A DNA stretch of 35,548 bases from a virus (taxonomy: Duplodnaviria; Heunggongvirae; Uroviricota; Caudoviricetes). The notes under the pieces were generated by a model. It saw only the letters and a program-made list of their open reading frames with translations, did not search any database and was not told the origin of the DNA. The stretch lies in the IMG/VR virus record IMGVR_UViG_646564533_000012; one strand, 5' to 3'. The position numbers and the translations under genes were made by a program. Of this stretch, positions 2,966-12,081 are shown piece after piece (within the stretch, counting starts at the first letter, position 1; each line of letters starts with the position of its first letter).

Positions 2966-3208
2966 ATGGACAAAGAATATAAAACACTCATCAACAAAGC
3001 ACTTGAGCGTTTCTATTTTCGCTTAAGTGCATCAGGCGTTCATGCTGAACGTGCAGCCCGTGACTCATTGACCAGGGCAATCCGGAGTCTGTATGACGTG
3101 GCTTTTTACGCTGATGATCTGGATGCACTTAACGAACTTTCCGAGCTGATCTGTGCCGCAGAATGCGGAGAACATATTGAACCGTATAAGCTGGGGAATA
3201 TCGCATGA
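2966..3208 (+). CDS. hypothetical early protein
   Basis: 80-aa ORF in the early operon. Confidence 0.5.
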   Translation: MDKEYKTLINKALERFYFRLSASGVHAERAARDSLTRAIRSLYDVAFYADDLDALNELSELICAAECGEHIEPYKLGNIA

Positions 3209-3411: not shown

Positions 3412-3822
3412 ATGCACGCAAAAGAAGAAGGTATCATCAGAGCACTGAAAGAAATTTCAAAGATGGAAAGCGAAGTAGCGAAAAAAGCCGTGGCCAATGC
3501 TCGCATGGACGTCGCAACCCACACAATGATAGTCGCAAAAGTCACGGCAGAAGCTGCCAAAATCATCGAAGAACAGGGTGTGGAACTTGCGCTTCTCAAA
3601 ACTAAACCAGTCACCGGACTGGATTTATCTGACACCGGACGCCTTATTTACACTATTGGCTCGGAGCCACAGCGATACACCATTATCGCCGGATTACAGA
3701 ACAAATACCTGATCACTCCTCACCCCATAAGGGAATCAGCGCTTCTGACAAATCTCCGCCTGATAGAGCGCTCTCAAGTTGCATTCATTGATGACGCCCG
3801 ACACACCGTATTTAACGCATAG
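3412..3822 (+). CDS. hypothetical early protein
   Basis: 136-aa ORF with GGAG upstream. Confidence 0.55.
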   Translation: MHAKEEGIIRALKEISKMESEVAKKAVANARMDVATHTMIVAKVTAEAAKIIEEQGVELALLKTKPVTGLDLSDTGRLIYTIGSEPQRYTIIAGLQNKYLITPHPIRESALLTNLRLIERSQVAFIDDARHTVFNA

Positions 3823-3845: not shown

Positions 3846-4049
3846 ATGGCAATTAAGCATTTTCCCGTCGTTCGCTTTACCTCCAGAGGGCGCGAATACG
3901 AGGTCGACGAACGCCTGATTACCACTATCGACAAACATCGTTCGGAAAAGGATGCACACCACATCTACCTCACTGACGGCACTTACTTCTGCGCCACCAA
4001 CGTGGCGCGGGTGAATCTTATCCGACAGGTACAGGAGCCACGCAGATGA
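3846..4049 (+). CDS. hypothetical early protein
   Basis: 67-aa ORF, start/stop overlap with the next ORF. Confidence 0.45.
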   Translation: MAIKHFPVVRFTSRGREYEVDERLITTIDKHRSEKDAHHIYLTDGTYFCATNVARVNLIRQVQEPRR

Positions 4050-5233: not shown

Positions 5234-5623
5234 ATGATTGACGCTCATGACTTCACAAGATGGGTGCGCACACAGGACACCCGTCTGGCTCCCGTTCTTC
5301 AGGGATTATTTGATCTCTACATCCGTGGTCGTGACAACAGAGCACACACCACAAAACCGGAAAATGCAGACACCCTTTATTTCACAGTAGACGACTGCTA
5401 CCGCGTGGACTTCACACCACACGGGCTGGCGTTGCATTGCCTGACACCACACGGAGAATCACTGCTGGCGTATTACGACTCCCCGGCCTCCGTATTTGCG
5501 GCAATGCTGGCGCATCGCACTGCTGGCGGGTGTGCCTCGCTGAGTGAATACACCGCTGAATTTAACCGCCTTTCTGCCCTCTTCTCGCAGGAGTGGCAGC
5601 GCGTGACGGGATACCAGCCATGA
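5234..5623 (+). CDS. hypothetical protein coupled to A
   Basis: 129-aa ORF whose stop overlaps the A start (ATGA). Confidence 0.55.
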   Translation: MIDAHDFTRWVRTQDTRLAPVLQGLFDLYIRGRDNRAHTTKPENADTLYFTVDDCYRVDFTPHGLALHCLTPHGESLLAYYDSPASVFAAMLAHRTAGGCASLSEYTAEFNRLSALFSQEWQRVTGYQP

Positions 5624-8460
5624 GTGAGTTTGCATGGAGCTGGAATGAACCACGGCCAGCCATTGATCCGGCCAGATTTACGGAGCACAGGCAGGAAACT
5701 GAAACCGACCTACAACGCGCCATCCGTTACTACCTTGAGGCAGACAAAAAGGCTCTGGAAGAACAGGAAGCGAAGGAGGAAGCCTTTTTCGCACAATCCA
5801 CCGTGGGTAAAAAACTCATGGCATCCCTTGAGGAAGCCGGACAGCGTGAAAAGCTGGCACAAAGCATCATCAGCAAGCGTCAGGCAACAGAACAAGACCC
5901 GGTGGCCCGTGCTTTTGCCACACTGAAGGTGCTTCCCGTTTATCTGCGTGAACCTCTGAGCCGCCACCTCTCTTTCCTGCGCAAAAAACAGGAAGCCGAT
6001 CGCCAGAAAGGCAAAAAGAGCTGGCAGGCTGAACGCTACGCGCGCGGAACCCTGCGCAAAATATTCGAACGCCTGGACCGCACCGATCACCGCTGGCTGA
6101 CACCGGGTTATCGCTCCCTTGCCGGACGCGAACGCCTGGACGATTTGCTTTACCTGCCGCAGCTCAACAAACACCAGATACAGACGCTGGCCACCATGAC
6201 GGCGGCGATGTTCAGCAGCACCTTCGAAAAACTCTGCGATGGCTTTGGTGCGACTGATGGCGAACTGACCATGGATGTAACGCTGAAGGCGTATCAGATG
6301 CTGGCCCGCATGGCGTTACACCTGCACGCCATGCCTCCACATTATGACGCACTGACAACAGACAAAGACCGGAGGAACGAACCGGACACGGAGCTGCTGC
6401 CGGGCGCAACCCTTCGCCTGACCTGTGCGGAATGGTGGAAACGCAAACTGTGGCTGTTACGTTGCGAGTGGAGAGAAGAACAACTCCGCGCCGCCTGTCT
6501 GGTTTCCAGAAAAACATCACCCTATCTGAGCCAGGACGCGTTAAGCGAGTTTCGCGCACAGCGCGAGAAAACACGCGATTTCCTGAAAAGTTTCATGCTG
6601 GAAAACGAAGACGGGTTCACGATTGATCTCGAGACAGTGTATTACGCGGGAGTAAGTAACCCGGTTCACCGTAAGGCAGAAATGATGGCCACCATGAAGG
6701 GGCTGGAACTTCTGGCCGAAGCCCGTGGCGACAAAGCGGTGTTTCTGACTGTCACCTGCCCGTCAAAATACCACGCCACAACAGAGAACGGTCATCCGAA
6801 TCCCAAATGGAACGGGGCCACCATGCGCGACTCCAGCGATTACCTGGTTAACACGTTTTTTGCGGCGGTCCGCAAGAAACTGAACCGCGACGGCCTGCGC
6901 TGGTATGGCATCCGCACAGTGGAGCCTCACCATGACGGCACCGTGCACTGGCATATGATGGTCTTTGCTCATCCGGAAGAAATCGACACCATTGTGTCCC
7001 ACACCCGCGATATTGCCATTCAGGAAGACCGCCACGAGCTGGGCAATGATATTACTCCGCGCTTTAAGGTGGAGTATGTCGACGGCTCAAAAGGCACGCC
7101 AACCAGCTACATCGCCACCTACATCGGAAAGAACCTGGACAGCCGCGCCGTGGATGGCATCGACCCGAAAACGGGCAAGCCACGCGTTGACCACGAAACC
7201 GGAAAATCAATGGCCGAGAGCGTGGAACGCGCCATCGGCTGGGCACGCCTTCACCGGGTCCGCCAGTTCCAGTTCTTTGGCATCCCCTCCCGTCAGGTAT
7301 GGCGTGAACTCCGCCGCCTTGCCAGCCAGATGGCACGCAACCCGGAAGGCCCACAACGGCTGAAGGATGATGCAATGGATGCGGTACTCGCTGCCGCTGA
7401 TGCCGGGTGTTTTGCCACCTACATTGAGAAACAGGGCGGCGTACTTGTTCCACGCAAAGACTACCTGATTCGCACCGCCTACGACCTCGCAGATGAGCTG
7501 AACGATTACGGCGAACAGAGCGTACAGATTTACGGGATCTGGTCACCACTCATCGGGGAATCCTCCCGTGTGTGCACGCACCCGGATAACTGGAAGCTGG
7601 TAAGACGTAAACCGGAAGCGGAAGACAGCACCCGCGAAAATGGTTTTGACCTTCAGGGCGGCCCTGCCGCCCCTTGGACTCGTGGCAATAACTGTCCCCG
7701 TGTACAGGAAACGGACAACAACGGGACAGAACAGCCGGAAGAACGGCCAGCACCGTGGCCGCAGCTCCCTGACGGCGTTGATGTGGATGAATGGATGCGC
7801 TCACTGAAACGGCACGAACGCCGGGCGCTGATGCGTTCGCTTCGTGACAAACAGGCAAAAAACAGCAGTGATGAAATGCAGAGCTGGACACAGAGCCGCA
7901 AACAGCAGCGGCCTTTGCCTGATAACCACGAATTACTCGCTAAAGAATGGCGGGAGTCTGCTGAATCTCTCGGCCTGCATATCGGTGAACAACAGATGCA
8001 GCACCTGTTACGGGGCGGCAGTCTGTACGTTGACGGCAGCATCATTGCACCGCAGGGATTTGAAATTGTACGCAAACCGGATACCCGCCCGGACAGCCGA
8101 ATCACGCAGCTCTGGCAGCGCCTGAGCCGTAATCATGGCGTAAGCAGCACGGAGATCCGCCATAACCCGGTCGCCAGCTATCTGACACAGCTGGAGGCAT
8201 CAGACCCTGAAGCCGCCGCACGCCTGGCATCCACACTTCAGCAGGACCAGAACACCATGAAAACACCCGTTACCGTGCTTTCTGACATGCTGCGCGCCAT
8301 CCGCGACGCAGAGCACGCACAGAGAATCAGTGAAACCACTGAACGCGCCCGCCGCAAAGCAGACCTGCTGCGGGGTGGCCTGACCAGTGGAAACAAAAAA
8401 CAGACAGAAACGGGACTCACGAATCCCGCAAATGAGCAAAAAACGCGCAGCGATATATGA
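5620..8460 (+). CDS. A: replication initiation endonuclease A (rolling-circle, HUH superfamily)
   Basis: Track ORF trimmed to MSEFAWSW; HUH-type motif HWHMMVF and paired catalytic tyrosines in TPTSYIATYIGK; about 946 aa with a long low-complexity C-terminal extension. Confidence 0.93.
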   Translation: MSEFAWSWNEPRPAIDPARFTEHRQETETDLQRAIRYYLEADKKALEEQEAKEEAFFAQSTVGKKLMASLEEAGQREKLAQSIISKRQATEQDPVARAFATLKVLPVYLREPLSRHLSFLRKKQEADRQKGKKSWQAERYARGTLRKIFERLDRTDHRWLTPGYRSLAGRERLDDLLYLPQLNKHQIQTLATMTAAMFSSTFEKLCDGFGATDGELTMDVTLKAYQMLARMALHLHAMPPHYDALTTDKDRRNEPDTELLPGATLRLTCAEWWKRKLWLLRCEWREEQLRAACLVSRKTSPYLSQDALSEFRAQREKTRDFLKSFMLENEDGFTIDLETVYYAGVSNPVHRKAEMMATMKGLELLAEARGDKAVFLTVTCPSKYHATTENGHPNPKWNGATMRDSSDYLVNTFFAAVRKKLNRDGLRWYGIRTVEPHHDGTVHWHMMVFAHPEEIDTIVSHTRDIAIQEDRHELGNDITPRFKVEYVDGSKGTPTSYIATYIGKNLDSRAVDGIDPKTGKPRVDHETGKSMAESVERAIGWARLHRVRQFQFFGIPSRQVWRELRRLASQMARNPEGPQRLKDDAMDAVLAAADAGCFATYIEKQGGVLVPRKDYLIRTAYDLADELNDYGEQSVQIYGIWSPLIGESSRVCTHPDNWKLVRRKPEAEDSTRENGFDLQGGPAAPWTRGNNCPRVQETDNNGTEQPEERPAPWPQLPDGVDVDEWMRSLKRHERRALMRSLRDKQAKNSSDEMQSWTQSRKQQRPLPDNHELLAKEWRESAESLGLHIGEQQMQHLLRGGSLYVDGSIIAPQGFEIVRKPDTRPDSRITQLWQRLSRNHGVSSTEIRHNPVASYLTQLEASDPEAAARLASTLQQDQNTMKTPVTVLSDMLRAIRDAEHAQRISETTERARRKADLLRGGLTSGNKKQTETGLTNPANEQKTRSDI

Positions 8461-8501
8461 AGCGCGCACAAAACAGGCAAAAACGGGATTTCAGAATCCC
8501 G
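8411..8501. repeat. two near-identical 18-bp palindromes (CGGGAYTC-N2-GAATCCCG), about 73 bp apart, at the A/parM junction
   Basis: Approx 8411..8428 and 8484..8501, each within a longer conserved direct repeat; candidate ParR-binding centromere/operator, or minus-strand terminators. Confidence 0.45.
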
Positions 8502-8536
8502 TAAACGATTAATTAATCAACATAAGGAAAAGCGAC

Positions 8537-9496
8537 ATGAAAATTTGTATCGACGACGGCTCCACCAACATCAAGCTGGCATGGACTGAGAACGGCGAAC
8601 GCCGCAACGCCATCAGCCCGAACAGCTTCAAGTCGGAATGGTCTGCGCCGTTCGGTGGCACGCAGCCCGCGAACTACATGCTTGATGGCGTGCGCTATGG
8701 TTTTGATCCGGTCAGCGATCGCTTTGTCCAGACGACCGACACGCAATACCAATACAGCGATGTGAATGTCATTGCCATTCATCACGCGCTGGTCAAATCA
8801 GGCATCACACCACAGGAGGTGGATGTGGTTGTCACCCTGCCACTGAGCGAGTATTTCGACACAAACGCACAGCCGGACATGGCCAACATCAACCGCAAAA
8901 AAGCGAACGTTATGCGCCCGGTGGAGTACCAGAACGGCGAAGCATTCACTATCCGTAACGTGCGGGTTATGCCTGAATCCATTCCGGCTGGCTTTAAGGC
9001 ACTGGCTGACATGAGTCCGTTTGAATCCCTGCTGATTGTGGATTTGGGCGGAACCACGCTGGATGTGGCAAAGGTTCAGGGGCAACTGGCAGGTATCAGC
9101 CAGGTGTTTTGCGATCCACACGTAGGCGTTTCTCTGATGGCCGATGCCGTACTGTCGGTGATGGCCACTAACGGTATGCGCACCAGTCACCACATCGCCA
9201 ATACCATTATCGAACATCGCCATGATGAAGCCTGGCTGCGCCAGCACATCCACAATGACGCGCATTACGACAGCCTGATGGCGGTTATTCGTGAAAAGGA
9301 AGAAACACTGAAACAACGAGTGATCCGCGCGCTGGCGGGTTTTTCGGGTTACGGGCGGGTGATGGTTGTCGGTGGCGGGGCGGAGATTGTGGCACCCGCT
9401 ATCCGCGAAGCCTGCGGAGTTAATGCGACTTTCATCGCGGACGGGGTGCCACAGTTTGCTCTGGTTAATGGGCTGTACGCAATGGACAAGGAGTAA
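8537..9496 (+). CDS. parM: ParM/StbA-like actin-type segregation ATPase
   Basis: N-terminus MKICIDDGSTNIKLAW matches the plasmid R1 ParM phosphate-1 motif; similarity continues (SPNSF, YSDVNV, HHAL, LIVDLGGTT); 319 aa. Confidence 0.88.
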   Translation: MKICIDDGSTNIKLAWTENGERRNAISPNSFKSEWSAPFGGTQPANYMLDGVRYGFDPVSDRFVQTTDTQYQYSDVNVIAIHHALVKSGITPQEVDVVVTLPLSEYFDTNAQPDMANINRKKANVMRPVEYQNGEAFTIRNVRVMPESIPAGFKALADMSPFESLLIVDLGGTTLDVAKVQGQLAGISQVFCDPHVGVSLMADAVLSVMATNGMRTSHHIANTIIEHRHDEAWLRQHIHNDAHYDSLMAVIREKEETLKQRVIRALAGFSGYGRVMVVGGGAEIVAPAIREACGVNATFIADGVPQFALVNGLYAMDKE

Positions 9497-9500
9497 ACCA

Positions 9501-9812
9501 ATGACGACACCAACCAGACGGATAAGTTTCTATCTGAAGCCCGCCGCCGTCAAGAACGAAGGCGAAGCATGCACCTGGCTGGACAGCCTTACACCAGAAG
9601 CCCGCAAAAGCGGCCAACGTGTGGCTTTTCTGGCCGGGCTGGCACTTCTGAAAATGAATCCGGCAGAGGCTTACCGACTGGCTGCATGGGCTGACGATGA
9701 GGCGTTATCAGTGACACAAACCAGGACAGAACGCCCCGCGTCACAGCCAGTACCAACCTCACAGATAACCAGTCGGATGGCCGGAAATATCAGGGCGTTA
9801 TTTCCCGAATAA
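9501..9812 (+). CDS. parR: ParR/StbB-like centromere-binding adaptor
   Basis: Track ORF trimmed to the Met behind AAGGAG (MTTPTRRISFYLKP...); ISFYLKP, WLDSL, AFLAGLAL and NIRALFPE align with R1 ParR; immediately downstream of parM. Confidence 0.78.
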   Translation: MTTPTRRISFYLKPAAVKNEGEACTWLDSLTPEARKSGQRVAFLAGLALLKMNPAEAYRLAAWADDEALSVTQTRTERPASQPVPTSQITSRMAGNIRALFPE

Positions 9813-9819
9813 CACAACA

Positions 9820-9845
9820 TCAGGGCGCATCCGCCCTGATGACTT
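9820..9845. promoter_or_regulatory. perfect 10-bp-arm inverted repeat (CATCAGGGCG-N4-CGCCCTGATG)
   Basis: Lies between parR and the next gene; operator or terminator hairpin; coordinates approx. Confidence 0.35.
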
Positions 9846-10583: not shown

Positions 10584-11034
10584 TGCACAATAGTGCACAA
10601 ATTTGCACAATTTTTTTGAACGACTTTTTGCCCTTCCGGCCCGCGTGGCGGCTGGATCCGTCAAGGATCCGTGCGTGCACAAAAAAACGCGCTTTTTCTG
10701 CGCGCAGGTGACGGGGGAACAGCCCGCGTTTCAGGGGGTAAATAGCATCCCCTGAACGATGTCGCAGCAACACAACAGAATGGCTGTATTTCTCACGCTG
10801 AGCGTGAAAAAAACGTGAGGGCTTTTGATTTGATGGGGTGAAAGGTAAGGCCGTCAAAATCGCACTGAGGCGGCGAGAACATGCAGTTAACGCGGTGGGA
10901 TTGCGTAAGAGTCTGACCGTCGATGATGGCAATAAGCAGGAAAGCGTCGTGAAATTATCTGACTGATACAGGAGCTGGAGAGTCGGGGCATAAATTTTTT
11001 ATGCCCCGGCGAAGCAGCAGACAAGCGAAGCGCG
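10584..11034. other. putative cos / packaging-recognition region
   Basis: About 450-bp non-coding gap in the position of P2 cos, upstream of Q; TGCACAA x3 at 10-bp phasing (10584, 10594, 10604) plus a fourth copy near 10676; GC-rich GCGTGGCGG and GAGGCGGCG segments resemble 186/P2 cohesive ends; exact cos not assignable. Confidence 0.35.
10984..11009. terminator. strong hairpin just downstream of Q
   Basis: GGGGCATAAA-TTT-TTTATGCCCC, about 25 bp past the Q stop; coordinates approx. Confidence 0.3.
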
Positions 11035-12081
11035 TCAGGATGTGGGCTGGGTGTCCAGCAGTGCATAAGGGTTAAAGCGGATCACCTCTTCGCCAAGCCA
11101 GTCATTGATGTGCTTCATGGCCTCCATGACGGGCATCAGCTCGTTAATTGCGTAAACCCGCGCGGCCTTCTCCACATCACCAAACGCACTTTTTTCACCC
11201 GGCATCGCCCCCATCAGTTGCGGCGGGACACGGTGCGCAGCCAGCACATCATCACGGGATGCCGCCTTAACATTCATGAACTCATCCTTTGCGGTGATCT
11301 GCTGGAACGGCAAAATTTGCACCCCCTCTTTGCCCCCGTTGGGCGCATGAATGAGCACGTTTTTAAACGCACCACCACCACGTGCACCCTGTAACGTTTC
11401 TTTCAGGGAGTCCATGCTTTCGCGGTTTACCTGCGCTGCACCGATGTAGATGATGCACCCGGCGTGGGATCCGTTGTCGTAATACAGTTTTCTGAACATG
11501 TCCGCCGAATGAGACAGGCTGGCCGAGAGTAATGCGCCGAGATATTCCGGCATGCCGTAAATTTCCTGGTTAATGTCCGGATTCATCAGGTGGCACACTT
11601 TGCCAGGGCGAAACTGGAACGCGTCCTTGCCATCCTGCACATACCACCATGATTCAAGATCGCTTCCGCGTCGCATGTATTTCGCCAGTGCGTGCCGTAA
11701 TTTAAGCGGTTCGCAGAGCATATTGCTTCGAAGCTCAAGGAATGCGTTACCGAACACAAACCAGTCCAGCGCCAGCGCCGAGAAATCCTGCCGGGAAAGC
11801 AGCGGGTGCGGAATATAGCAACCGAGCAATACATTCCGCTTAAAGTAAAGCGCAGACTGATGCCAGGACGTTTGCCGGGCAGCTCTTGCCAGACCGTACC
11901 AGTCCACCGGGGTTTCATACCACCGCCCGTTATCAGCACAGTACATATTGTCCAGCAGGTCATGCCCGGTCAGGCGATAAGGACCATCAAATGTGAATGC
12001 ACTGAGCGATGATTCTTTCCTGAGCGCATCAGCGAGATCAATGCGTGAACTCATGCGCACTTTTTTATTTTTTCTGCTCAT
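11035..12081 (-). CDS. Q: portal protein Q
   Basis: 348 aa, position and size match P2 gpQ; stop/start overlap with P. Confidence 0.9.
   Translation of the reverse strand: MSRKNKKVRMSSRIDLADALRKESSLSAFTFDGPYRLTGHDLLDNMYCADNGRWYETPVDWYGLARAARQTSWHQSALYFKRNVLLGCYIPHPLLSRQDFSALALDWFVFGNAFLELRSNMLCEPLKLRHALAKYMRRGSDLESWWYVQDGKDAFQFRPGKVCHLMNPDINQEIYGMPEYLGALLSASLSHSADMFRKLYYDNGSHAGCIIYIGAAQVNRESMDSLKETLQGARGGGAFKNVLIHAPNGGKEGVQILPFQQITAKDEFMNVKAASRDDVLAAHRVPPQLMGAMPGEKSAFGDVEKAARVYAINELMPVMEAMKHINDWLGEEVIRFNPYALLDTQPTS

What the first reader, a model, noticed from the sequence alone, without database searches (positions are those of the whole stretch)
8411..8501. Paired palindromic elements straddling the A stop codon
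Two near-identical 18-bp palindromes (CGGGAYTC-N2-GAATCCCG) sit about 73 bp apart, roughly seven helical turns, one inside the last codons of A and one in the A/parM spacer. Read on the minus strand each is a hairpin followed by a T-run, so they could instead be tandem terminators blocking antisense transcription into A.
Basis: seen in the sequence. Interest (0 to 1): 0.45.

Follow-up and report, generated by a model that had tools for sequence, protein, structure and literature searches.

The report
Phage ParR centromere-like palindrome pair
Two matching 18-bp palindromes 73 bp apart just upstream of a plasmid-type partition gene pair (parM-parR) in a very common P2-like E. coli prophage are most likely the docking sites (centromere/operator) for the ParR protein, not transcription terminators; binding has not been tested.

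Summary
CGGGACTCACGAATCCCG (8411-8428) and CGGGATTTCAGAATCCCG (8484-8501) are the only such sites in the window. A related 5.4-Mb host genome also has only two, both in its prophage. They are the cores of a 42-nt direct repeat spaced 73 bp.

The window is a P88-like (Xuanwuvirus, P2-family) phage carrying gpA, ParM and an RHH ParR of the StbB family.

Four prophage lineages, with ParM down to 62% identity, share a ParR that begins TRR[IV]SFYLKP. All four keep two YGGG-N10-CCCR sites 72-73 bp apart at the same distance from the parM start. About 65 other parM loci have none.

The inner palindrome arms, the hairpin stability and the T-runs are not conserved, and there is no covariation. The minus-strand terminator reading therefore fails outside the E. 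coli lineage.

The left mosaic junction of the par cassette lies at about 8396, the start of repeat 1. The sites therefore travel with parMR, whatever gene lies upstream.

Best reading (about 0.7): a minimal, split, palindromic parC/operator, each site bound by a ParR dimer-of-dimers. It is a new member of a known kind, with an unusual architecture. Binding, promoter position and partition activity remain untested.

The parts
8411..8428 (.). Site 1: 18-bp imperfect palindrome CGGGACTCACGAATCCCG (family core YGGG-N10-CCCR), inside the last codons of gpA
   Evidence: The site is conserved at -125 to -132 from the parM ATG in four lineages.
8484..8501 (.). Site 2: 18-bp imperfect palindrome CGGGATTTCAGAATCCCG in the A/parM spacer
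   Evidence: The site is conserved at -52 to -60 from the parM ATG in four lineages.
8394..8435 (+). Repeat unit 1 (42 nt): A-rich left flank, then site 1, then CAAATGA. Its left end coincides with the left mosaic junction of the par cassette (about 8396).
   Evidence: family D1; homology break in L053 and L060.
8467..8508 (+). Repeat unit 2 (42 nt, 79% identical to unit 1): A-rich left flank, then site 2, then TAAACGA
   Evidence: The right flank NAAAYG is also kept in L163 and L085.
8429..8483 (+). 55-bp spacer between the sites. It holds the gpA stop codon (8458-8460) and a short GC inverted repeat (CGCGC 8444-8448 / GCGCG 8462-8466). It is the proposed loop region.
   Evidence: No sigma-70 consensus promoter was detected.
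8508..8520 (+). ATTAATTAATCAA: an ATTAAT(CAA) element kept in all four lineages between site 2 and the parM ribosome-binding site (AAGGAA 8524-8529). It is a candidate -10 region; its function is not shown.
8537..9496 (+). parM (319 aa), actin-like segregation ATPase
   Evidence: Pfam StbA_N 1.8e-82 and ParM C-terminal domain 1e-68.
9501..9812 (+). parR (103 aa), ribbon-helix-helix adaptor of the StbB/ParR family. The N-terminal DNA-binding half is conserved and the C-terminal half is variable, ending in ..NIRALFPE.
   Evidence: Pfam Plasmid_stab_B 1.1e-23. The profile hits PDB 2JD3 (StbB) at E 2.2e-22. AF2 model. Alignments.
5593..8460 (+). gpA replication endonuclease. Its last ~21 codons are read from par-cassette DNA.
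   Evidence: Pfam Phage_GPA 1.6e-130. Junction shown.

Best explanation
The two palindromes are the ParR-binding sites of a phage-borne type II (ParMRC) partition cassette. Together they form a minimal, split parC centromere that probably also serves as an operator.

**Proposed mechanism**
- ParR is a ribbon-helix-helix dimer. Two dimers bind each 18-bp site as a head-to-head dimer-of-dimers.
- Each dimer reads one half-site of the form YGGGWY. The half-site centres are about 10 bp apart, so both dimers sit on one face of the helix.
- The two sites are 73 bp apart, about 7.0 helical turns, so both ParR tetramers face the same side. They can close the 55-bp A-tract-rich spacer into a small loop, as the two iteron clusters of plasmid R1 do around their 39-bp promoter core.
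- The clustered C-terminal tails of ParR (..NIRALFPE) then capture the growing end of ParM filaments. The filaments push copies of the circular, non-integrated phage genome apart.
- Site 2 lies 6-10 bp upstream of a conserved ATTAAT element, so ParR could also throttle parMR expression.

**Shown here**
- The sites exist.
- They are unique.
- They are conserved in core sequence, spacing and position.
- They are linked to the parMR module and to one ParR N-terminal type.

**Inferred, not shown**
- That ParR binds the sites.
- The stoichiometry.
- The looping.
- Any autoregulation.
- Any partition activity.
For: **Position.** The sites lie directly upstream of parM-parR. These genes are StbA/ParM and Plasmid_stab_B/ParR by Pfam. 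The ParR profile matches the solved pB171 StbB/ParR structure 2JD3 at E 2.2e-22. The AF2 model gives an extended N-terminus, helices at 18-29, 32-52 and 54-61, a disordered linker and a C-terminal helix.

**Conservation across lineages.** Two YGGG-N10-CCCR sites occur in each of four lineages:

| Lineage | Position from parM ATG | Spacing (bp) |
|---|---|---|
| P88-like | -126 / -53 | 73 |
| L163 (Hafnia MAG) | -125 / -52 | 73 |
| L085 (Hafnia, ParM 62%) | -129 / -56 | 73 |
| L087 (Plesiomonas, ParM 63%) | -132 / -60 | 72 |

The shift of 72-73 is the top autocorrelation peak in all four lineages (z 3.2-5.5).

**Specificity.** No site occurs in the 263 nt upstream of about 65 other parM loci. 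The per-position chance of the loose motif is 8.5e-5. The expected number of pairs at 72-74 bp spacing is therefore about 6e-6 per locus (my arithmetic).

**Link to ParR type.** All site-bearing lineages have ParR starting ..TRR[IV]SFYLKP... Relatives with NRK or RRK types carry other repeats: Serratia L088, Apirhabdus L156, IncL/M and IncI-gamma/K1 plasmids.

**Link to the module.**
- The left homology break of the cassette is at about 8396, the start of repeat 1. To its left lie the gpA tail (window) or an unrelated 155-aa ORF (L053).
- In L060 the DNA to the left is also unrelated, and site 1 is non-coding there.
- In Hafnia L085 site 1 lies inside a 167-aa ORF.

**Uniqueness.** A 5.4-Mb host genome has only these two copies.

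**Pattern of variation.** Within the P88-like clade the outer GGGA and TCCC are largely kept, while the central 6-8 bp vary freely (TTCAGA versus TTAAAA). This fits two half-sites better than a stem.

**Precedent.** The split parC of R1 (PMC2241845, PMC5016525), and a ParR-bound parC made of palindromic repeats in C. botulinum (PMC12270681).
Against: - No binding, stabilisation or expression data exist.
- Only two sites (four half-sites) are present, against 10 iterons in R1. Whether so few can build a ParM-capturing complex is unknown.
- There is no 10-11 bp periodicity of further iterons.
- No consensus sigma-70 promoter is found near or between the sites, so the operator role is weak.
- A common variant of site 2 has CCTG instead of CCCG, so the 'invariant' core is not absolute.
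- All four site-bearing lineages are P2-like phages. A shared phage regulator other than ParR is therefore not strictly excluded.
- 1441 of 1443 E. coli copies are chromosomal, where a centromere has no obvious use.
Confidence: 0.7

Rival explanations
1. Tandem intrinsic terminators on the minus strand. They would stop antisense transcription from reading into gene A.
For: In the window both sites score as hairpin plus T-rich tail on the minus strand. Their folding energies are -10.5 and -10.4 kcal/mol, with z-scores of -2.1 and -2.6.
Against: - The stem shrinks to 4 bp with a 10-nt loop, and stability is no better than shuffles, at site 1 of Hafnia L085 and Plesiomonas L087 (z -0.4 and -0.2).
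- The T-run is absent at Hafnia site 2, which is followed by AAAAGG on the minus strand.
- There is no covariation beyond shuffles (score 0.091 against 0.075; 76 of 500 shuffles reach it).
- Any leftward transcript from the late genes would first meet terminator-like hairpins at 10705-10687 and 9841-9818. It would then have to cross all of parR and parM before reaching these sites.
- What is conserved is sequence (YGGG and CCCR) and spacing, not structure.
Confidence: 0.06
2. Operator for a different DNA-binding protein, either a phage regulator encoded elsewhere in P2-like genomes or a host factor. The protein would control entry of early-operon transcription into parMR.
For: - An 18-bp palindrome with half-sites about 10 bp apart also suits a helix-turn-helix dimer.
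- All site-bearing genomes are P2-like phages sharing many early proteins.
Against: - The sites stay with parMR across mosaic junctions while the upstream genes change.
- P2-like Serratia prophages with a different ParR type lack the sites.
- There are no other copies in the phage or in a 5.4-Mb host genome. A regulator with a single paired target next to a gene encoding an RHH DNA-binding protein is less economical than ParR itself.
Confidence: 0.12
3. Plus-strand RNA hairpins in the A-parM transcript. They could be processing or stability elements, or attenuators setting the amount of parM message.
For: - The frequent CCCG to CCTG change in site 2 keeps a G-U pair only on the plus-strand RNA.
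- Variants of the GC inverted repeat in the spacer (CGTGC, GTGCG) are likewise G-U compatible on the plus strand only.
Against: - The hairpin is not conserved in the distant lineages.
- There is no compensatory change.
- No Rfam family matches.
- C to T transitions at CpG-like positions are the commonest change anyway.
Confidence: 0.05
4. A duplication scar with no function of its own, for example a leftover of the cassette's insertion or of recombination at the A/par junction.
For: - The sites are part of a 42-nt direct repeat.
- Repeat 1 sits exactly at a mosaic junction.
- One genome keeps site 1 alone after losing parMR.
Against: - The core, the spacing and the position survive divergence to 62% ParM identity, while the flanks and spacer are randomised.
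- Neutral scars would not keep YGGG-N10-CCCR twice in each of four lineages.
Confidence: 0.04

Closest known systems
parC of plasmid R1 (ParMRC, type II partition)
   Same: - It lies directly upstream of parM-parR.
- It is bound by an RHH ParR of the same Pfam family.
- It is split into two parts, with intervening DNA that loops out.
- It doubles as an operator (PMC2241845, PMC5016525).
   Different: - R1 has 2 x 5 tandem 11-bp direct iterons separated by a 39-bp promoter core.
- Here there are only two 18-bp inverted-repeat sites, 73 bp start to start.
- No 10-11 bp iteron periodicity is present.
- No recognisable promoter lies between the sites.
- The replicon is an integrative P2-like phage, not a plasmid.
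parC of the nearest plasmid ParMR systems (Apirhabdus plasmid L156, IncL/M such as the pOXA-48 type, IncI-gamma/K1)
   Same: - ParM is 47-62% identical and ParR belongs to the same family.
- The repeats are upstream and bipartite.
- IncL/M also shows a 73-bp self-match.
   Different: - The plasmids use T-rich 10-11-bp direct repeats (e.g. GTTCTCAAATA, TATTTTTCT) flanking a clear promoter.
- Their ParR N-termini are RRK or NRK types.
- None has YGGG-N10-CCCR.
Chromosomal cParCMR of Clostridium botulinum (PMC12270681)
   Same: Its parC is made of palindromic repeats and was shown by gel shift to bind its ParR. The cassette sits on a chromosome.
   Different: - It has three palindromic repeats placed after parR.
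- The organism is an unrelated Firmicute.
- There is no sequence relation.
- Binding is tested there and not here.
AlpA/AlpC/alpS of Corynebacterium glutamicum prophage CGP3 (PMC5539076)
   Same: It is a prophage-borne actin-like filament system with a DNA-binding adaptor and cognate DNA sites. It acts on phage DNA after induction.
   Different: - The actin-like protein and adaptor families are different.
- The phage type is different.
- The alpS sites are unrelated.
Palindromic operators of RHH repressors (Arc, Mnt, CopG) and the 20-bp repeat of pSK41 parC, each bound by a dimer-of-dimers (my own knowledge and PMC5016525)
   Same: Two half-sites lie about one helical turn apart, read by two RHH dimers that touch each other.
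   Different: Those are operators or contiguous arrays. Here two such units are held 7 turns apart next to a ParM motor gene.

Membership tests
Type II partition centromere parC (ParMRC) | Lies in cis next to, and classically just upstream of, a parM-parR operon | tested here: met
   The sites are at -126 and -53 from the parM ATG. parR follows parM.
Type II partition centromere parC (ParMRC) | The cognate adaptor is an RHH ParR with a C-terminal ParM-binding tail | tested here: met
   - PF10784 at 1.1e-23.
- PDB 2JD3 StbB at E 2.2e-22.
- AF2 topology.
- Conserved ..N-x-x-x-LFP tail.
Type II partition centromere parC (ParMRC) | Contains repeated sequence elements that co-vary with the ParR type | tested here: met
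   - The two repeat units are kept in four TRR-type lineages.
- Other ParR types have other repeats.
Type II partition centromere parC (ParMRC) | Arrays of tandem 10-11-bp (or 20-bp) direct iterons, as in R1 and pSK41 | tested here: not met
   - Only two units are present, each an inverted repeat.
- There is no 10-11 bp autocorrelation peak, whereas IncL/M shows one at z 4.6.
- This is a feature of the model systems rather than of the class; compare the palindromic cParC in PMC12270681.
Type II partition centromere parC (ParMRC) | Specific binding by ParR | not testable with these tools
   Needs a gel shift, footprint or ChIP.
Type II partition centromere parC (ParMRC) | Stabilises an unstable replicon in cis and exerts incompatibility | not testable with these tools
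   Needs plasmid-loss and incompatibility assays.
Type II partition centromere parC (ParMRC) | Overlaps or flanks the par promoter and mediates autorepression | tested here: inconclusive
   - No consensus promoter is found in 8200-8700.
- A conserved ATTAAT lies 6-13 nt after site 2.
- Lineage L163 has TGAACA-N16-TATAAG in the spacer by my reading.
- No transcript data are available.
Rho-independent (intrinsic) terminator, minus strand | GC-rich stem-loop directly followed by a U-tract | tested here: met
   Met in the window only. The tail of site 1 is weak (TTTCTGTC).
Rho-independent (intrinsic) terminator, minus strand | Structure and U-tract conserved in relatives, with compensatory changes | tested here: not met
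   - The stems fall to 4 bp and the U-tract is lost in L085 and L087.
- Covariation is not above shuffles.
Rho-independent (intrinsic) terminator, minus strand | Placed at the end of a transcription unit on that strand | tested here: not met
   - The nearest minus-strand genes (from the portal gene at 11035 onward) are followed by terminator-like hairpins at 10705-10687 and 9841-9818.
- The sites lie behind the antisense of parR and parM.

The most novel reading that the evidence does not exclude
P2-like integrative phages carry a stripped-down actin spindle. Its centromere is just two palindromic ParR sites held seven helical turns apart.

The cassette has no terminator between it and gene A. 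It would therefore be expressed with the early (replication) operon and work only while the genome is a free circle, after infection or induction. In that state it would spread or hold apart replicating phage genomes, or carry a transient plasmid state through cell division before integration.

In the quarter of E. coli genomes that hold it, the chromosomal copy would stay silent under the immunity repressor.

If true, this would be the smallest natural parC. It would also define a phage life-cycle role for ParMRC distinct from plasmid maintenance.
Probability: 0.25. Interest if true: 0.6.

Novelty: new member of a known kind. Interest (0 to 1): 0.4.

Why it matters
The cassette is present in 1303 of 5426 complete E. 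coli genomes, including ST131, O157:H7 and O104:H4 strains. It is almost always chromosomal. Its genes are routinely annotated as 'plasmid segregation', but I found no paper that defines its cis site or its role.

Pinning the centromere/operator to two defined 18-bp sites makes the system directly testable by gel shift, stabilisation assay, or imaging of ParM filaments after induction.

It also offers a very small, symmetric parC for asking how many ParR dimers are needed to capture a ParM filament. If the sites bind ParR, they show that ParR proteins of the R1/pB171 family can use inverted as well as direct repeats.

Tried and rejected
- **Terminator reading.** Folded the minus strand of all eight sites and counted pairs on 24 site variants. 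The structure is not conserved and there is no covariation, so this reading was rejected for the family.
- **Hidden array of 10-11-bp iterons.** By eye, A-rich 11-mers such as CAAAAACGGGA and CAAAAAACGCG recur. Autocorrelation gives no 10-11 bp signal in any of the four phage lineages, and the left flanks are not kept across lineages. This idea was not adopted.
- **Replication origin or nick site of gpA.** P2 has its ori inside gene A (my own knowledge). This was rejected. The sites stay with parMR when the upstream gene is not A (L053, L060, L085). They are also absent from the A gene ends of the Serratia phages.
- **Dispersed host repeat (REP-like).** Rejected, because a 5.4-Mb host genome has only these two copies.
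- **Known RNA family.** None found.
- **Promoter search by consensus.** Nothing found at the tool's threshold. My hand-picked hexamers are weak and not conserved, so the promoter is left open.
- **Co-variation between site variants and ParR N-terminal variants within the P88-like clade.** None seen. The beta-strand is invariant.
- **Literature.** No paper characterises the P88/phiSM par cassette. The pB171 ParR/parC structure paper was not held.
- **The window's own assembly.** It is not held.
Full report
**1. What is there**

The window is a P88-like phage of the P2 family (genus Xuanwuvirus). The region 7400-9600 is 96-99% identical to Escherichia phage P88, Citrobacter phage Shae_phiSM and others.

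The local genes are all on the plus strand:

| Gene | Coordinates | Evidence |
|---|---|---|
| gpA replication endonuclease | 5593-8460 | Phage_GPA 1.6e-130 |
| parM | 8537-9496 | StbA_N 1.8e-82 |
| parR | 9501-9812 | Plasmid_stab_B 1.1e-23 |

The finding's coordinates are exact. CGGGACTCACGAATCCCG lies at 8411-8428 and CGGGATTTCAGAATCCCG at 8484-8501, 73 bp start to start. Site 1 is inside the last codons of A, whose stop is at 8458-8460. Site 2 is in the 76-bp spacer before parM.

The pattern occurs nowhere else in the 35.5-kb window. The expected count is 0.08, and none of 100 shuffles matched the observed count. A 5.4-Mb bacterial genome that carries a related prophage has exactly two copies, both in the prophage and 73 bp apart. 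The element is therefore not a dispersed host repeat.

The palindromes are the cores of a longer 42-nt direct repeat, 8394-8435 and 8467-8508, at 79% identity.

**2.

Close relatives are too similar to be informative, so I searched for distant ParM homologues and fetched their DNA.

P2-like prophages of Hafnia (L085, ParM 62%), Plesiomonas (L087, 63%) and a Hafnia MAG (L163, ParR 74%) have the same gene order: gpA, sometimes an extra ORF, then parM and parR. Each has exactly two sites of the form YGGG-N10-CCCR upstream of parM:

| Lineage | Site 1 | Site 2 | Position from parM ATG | Spacing (bp) |
|---|---|---|---|---|
| L163 | CGGGATTCATGAATCCCA | CGGGATTTGAAAATCCCA | -125 / -52 | 73 |
| L085 | TGGGATTGAGGAAACCCA | CGGGTTCATTAAATCCCA | -129 / -56 | 73 |
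| L087 | CGGGACAACAAAAACCCG | CGGGACAACACTAACCCA | -132 / -60 | 72 |
| P88-like (incl. window) | see above | see above | -126 / -53 | 73 |

A scan of the 263 nt upstream of parM in every fetched locus found the motif in these lineages only. About 65 other parM loci, both plasmids and chromosomes with ParM 35-62% identical, had none.

The loose motif has a per-position chance of 8.5e-5. A pair at 72-74 bp spacing within 263 nt is therefore expected about 6e-6 times per locus (my arithmetic).

Self-comparison of the 150 nt before parM gives 72 or 73 as the strongest shift in all four lineages (z 5.5, 4.5, 3.2, 3.3). No 10-11 bp periodicity appears.

**3. What is conserved is sequence and geometry, not a hairpin**

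Between lineages only the outer YGGG and CCCR, a W at position 5, and a short right flank (NAAAYG in the E. coli and Hafnia lineages) persist. The inner arms that make the E. coli sites 8-bp palindromes are lost.

On 24 distinct site variants the 8-pair stem shows no covariation beyond shuffles (score 0.091 against 0.075 +/- 0.014; 76 of 500 shuffles reach it). Pairs 5-8 simply break in the distant lineages.

Minus-strand hairpins are moderately stable in the window (-10.5 and -10.4 kcal/mol; z -2.1 and -2.6). At site 1 of L085 and L087 they are no better than shuffles (z -0.4 and -0.2). The T-run after Hafnia site 2 is absent on the minus strand.

On the minus strand there are also terminator-like hairpins closer to the late genes, at 10705-10687 and 9841-9818. 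Terminators at 8411-8501 would let antisense RNA cross all of parR and parM first.

No Rfam family matches. I therefore reject the terminator reading for the family. It could at most be a side property in E. coli.

**4. The sites belong to the par cassette, not to gene A**

Among 83 P88-like loci there are 58 distinct upstream sequences. Two of these loci, L053 and L060, are unrelated to the window to the left of about 8396 and nearly identical to its right. The break falls at the first bases of repeat unit 1.

- In L053 a 155-aa ORF, not A, reads into the cassette.
- In L060 no ORF covers site 1.
- In Hafnia L085 site 1 lies inside a 167-aa ORF inserted between A and parM.

The last ~21 codons of A in the window are thus cassette DNA that the A frame happens to read. 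This also argues against a gpA origin or nick site.

One E. coli genome has lost parMR to an ead/Ea22-like gene but keeps the A tail with site 1 as a relic.

**5. Link to ParR**

The only DNA-binding protein in the cassette is ParR. A profile of ParR homologues hits the solved pB171 StbB/ParR structure 2JD3 at E 2.2e-22.

The AF2 model has an extended N-terminus (the ribbon strand forms only in the dimer), helices at 18-29, 32-52 and 54-61, a disordered linker and a C-terminal helix. This matches the published ParR layout of an RHH N-domain and a ParM-binding tail (PMC5016525).

All site-bearing lineages share the N-terminal motif TRR[IV]SFYLKP. Relatives with NRK or RRK motifs have other repeats:

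- Serratia phages have a 14-bp inverted pair GAAATAGAAAAATG and a GCCGTTTAAACGGC palindrome.
- The Apirhabdus plasmid has classical 11-bp direct repeats GTTCTCAAATA in two clusters around a TTGTGT...TATAAT promoter.
- IncL/M and IncI-gamma/K1 plasmids have T-rich 10-bp direct repeats.

Within E. coli the RHH half of ParR is almost invariant, while the C-terminal half falls to 50% identity. This fits a conserved DNA target. I saw no co-variation of site variants with ParR variants.

**6. Mechanism proposed**

Known parC sites are repeat arrays upstream of parMR. They are either contiguous or split in two, with the promoter between the parts. One ParR dimer binds each 10-11-bp iteron, and pairs of dimers form the unit of the ParR super-helix. 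The intervening DNA of a split parC loops out and is repressed (PMC2241845, PMC5016525).

I propose the following for the phage:

- Each 18-bp site binds a head-to-head pair of ParR dimers. The half-sites YGGGWY have centres about 10 bp apart.
- The two sites, 7.0 turns apart, sit on one face of the helix. The 55-bp A-tract-rich spacer can then loop.
- The clustered ParR tails then engage ParM.

Palindromic parC repeats that bind their ParR are documented in a C. botulinum chromosomal system (PMC12270681). An actin-like system acting on phage DNA is documented for prophage CGP3 (PMC5539076).

Binding, stoichiometry, looping, regulation and partition are all inferred here.

**7. Open points**

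- No consensus promoter was found. A conserved ATTAAT(CAA) lies between site 2 and the ribosome-binding site in all four lineages and may be a -10 element.
- No plus-strand terminator separates A from parM, so read-through from the early operon is likely (inference).
- A frequent variant of site 2 has CCTG for CCCG.
- Only four half-sites exist, against ten iterons in R1.
- Transcript data could not be obtained.

**8. Context**

The cassette is in 1303 of 5426 complete E. coli genomes, at 1441 chromosomal places and 2 plasmid places. Seven PLSDB 'plasmids' match at 95-99%; the one I opened is a whole phage circle of about 34 kb with an integrase. Papers on P88 and phiSM do not discuss the cassette beyond annotation.

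**9. Verdict**

- The protein-site reading is supported by strong comparative evidence, with ParR as the most economical ligand (about 0.7).
- The terminator reading is not supported.
- This is a new member of the known parC class with an unusual minimal, palindromic, two-site architecture.
- Interest is moderate.

Noticed in passing
window 8390-9812; E. coli genome collection: The par cassette occurs in 1303 of 5426 complete E. coli genomes (24%), at 1441 chromosomal places against 2 on plasmids. Carriers include ST131, O157:H7 and O104:H4 strains. Seven PLSDB records match it at 95-99%. The one opened, NZ_CP148288.1 (34,461 bp), is a whole P88-like phage genome with its integrase filed as a circular 'plasmid'.
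   Followed up: partly
window 9501-9812 (parR): ParR is mosaic. Residues 1-50 (the RHH domain) are nearly invariant across E. coli, while the C-terminal half drops to about 50% identity. ParM stays at 92-99%. Only the last residues (..NI[RQ]ALFPE) are kept.
   Followed up: partly
window about 8396; L053 2457-2924; L060 2338-2817; L085 3453-3956: There is a variable slot between gpA and the par cassette. Some relatives carry an extra 155-167-aa ORF of unknown function there. The frame of whichever gene lies upstream runs on into cassette DNA and stops at the same TGA.
   Followed up: partly
window 8444-8448 / 8462-8466: A short GC inverted repeat (CGCGC...GCGCG) brackets the gpA stop codon in the spacer. 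Natural variants (CGTGC, GTGCG) would keep G-U pairs only in plus-strand RNA. The significance is unknown.
   Followed up: no
window 8508-8520; L085 about 3975-3985; L087 about 3972-3982; L163 about 3014-3020: An ATTAAT(CAA) element is conserved just upstream of the parM ribosome-binding site in all four site-bearing lineages. It is absent from the Serratia and plasmid relatives. It may be a -10 element.
   Followed up: partly
L053 (IMG/VR UViG_2547132279_000014), sites at -126 and -53: Both sites carry the same G-to-A change (CAGG instead of CGGG) in one genome. This is a parallel change that could reflect gene conversion between the two repeat units.
   Followed up: no
L167 (NZ_CP115358.1) 3501-3576: One E. 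coli prophage keeps the gpA tail with site 1 and part of the spacer. From window position about 8466 onward, parMR is replaced by a frameshifted ead/Ea22-like gene. This is a second mosaic junction, inside the spacer.
   Followed up: yes
window 9818-9841 and 10687-10705: A strong 10-bp GC-rich hairpin lies right after the parR stop, and a clean minus-strand terminator (GCGCGC..GCGCGT plus T7) lies downstream of the portal gene. They are likely operon boundaries on either side of the variable region.
   Followed up: no
L002-L004 (IncL/M plasmids) 2340-2460: The IncL/M parC region has 10-bp T-rich direct repeats (TATTTTTCT) and also a 73-bp self-match, because TGTATTTTTC occurs in two clusters. 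The same start-to-start spacing as in the phage may be a shared feature of this ParR clade.
   Followed up: no
L088 (Serratia) 3880-3990: Serratia P2-like prophages with an NRK-type ParR carry a different set of repeats upstream of parM. These are a perfect 14-bp inverted pair GAAATAGAAAAATG / CATTTTTCTATTTC, two ATTTCATGACC direct repeats and a GCCGTTTAAACGGC palindrome. They are probably that lineage's own parC.
   Followed up: no
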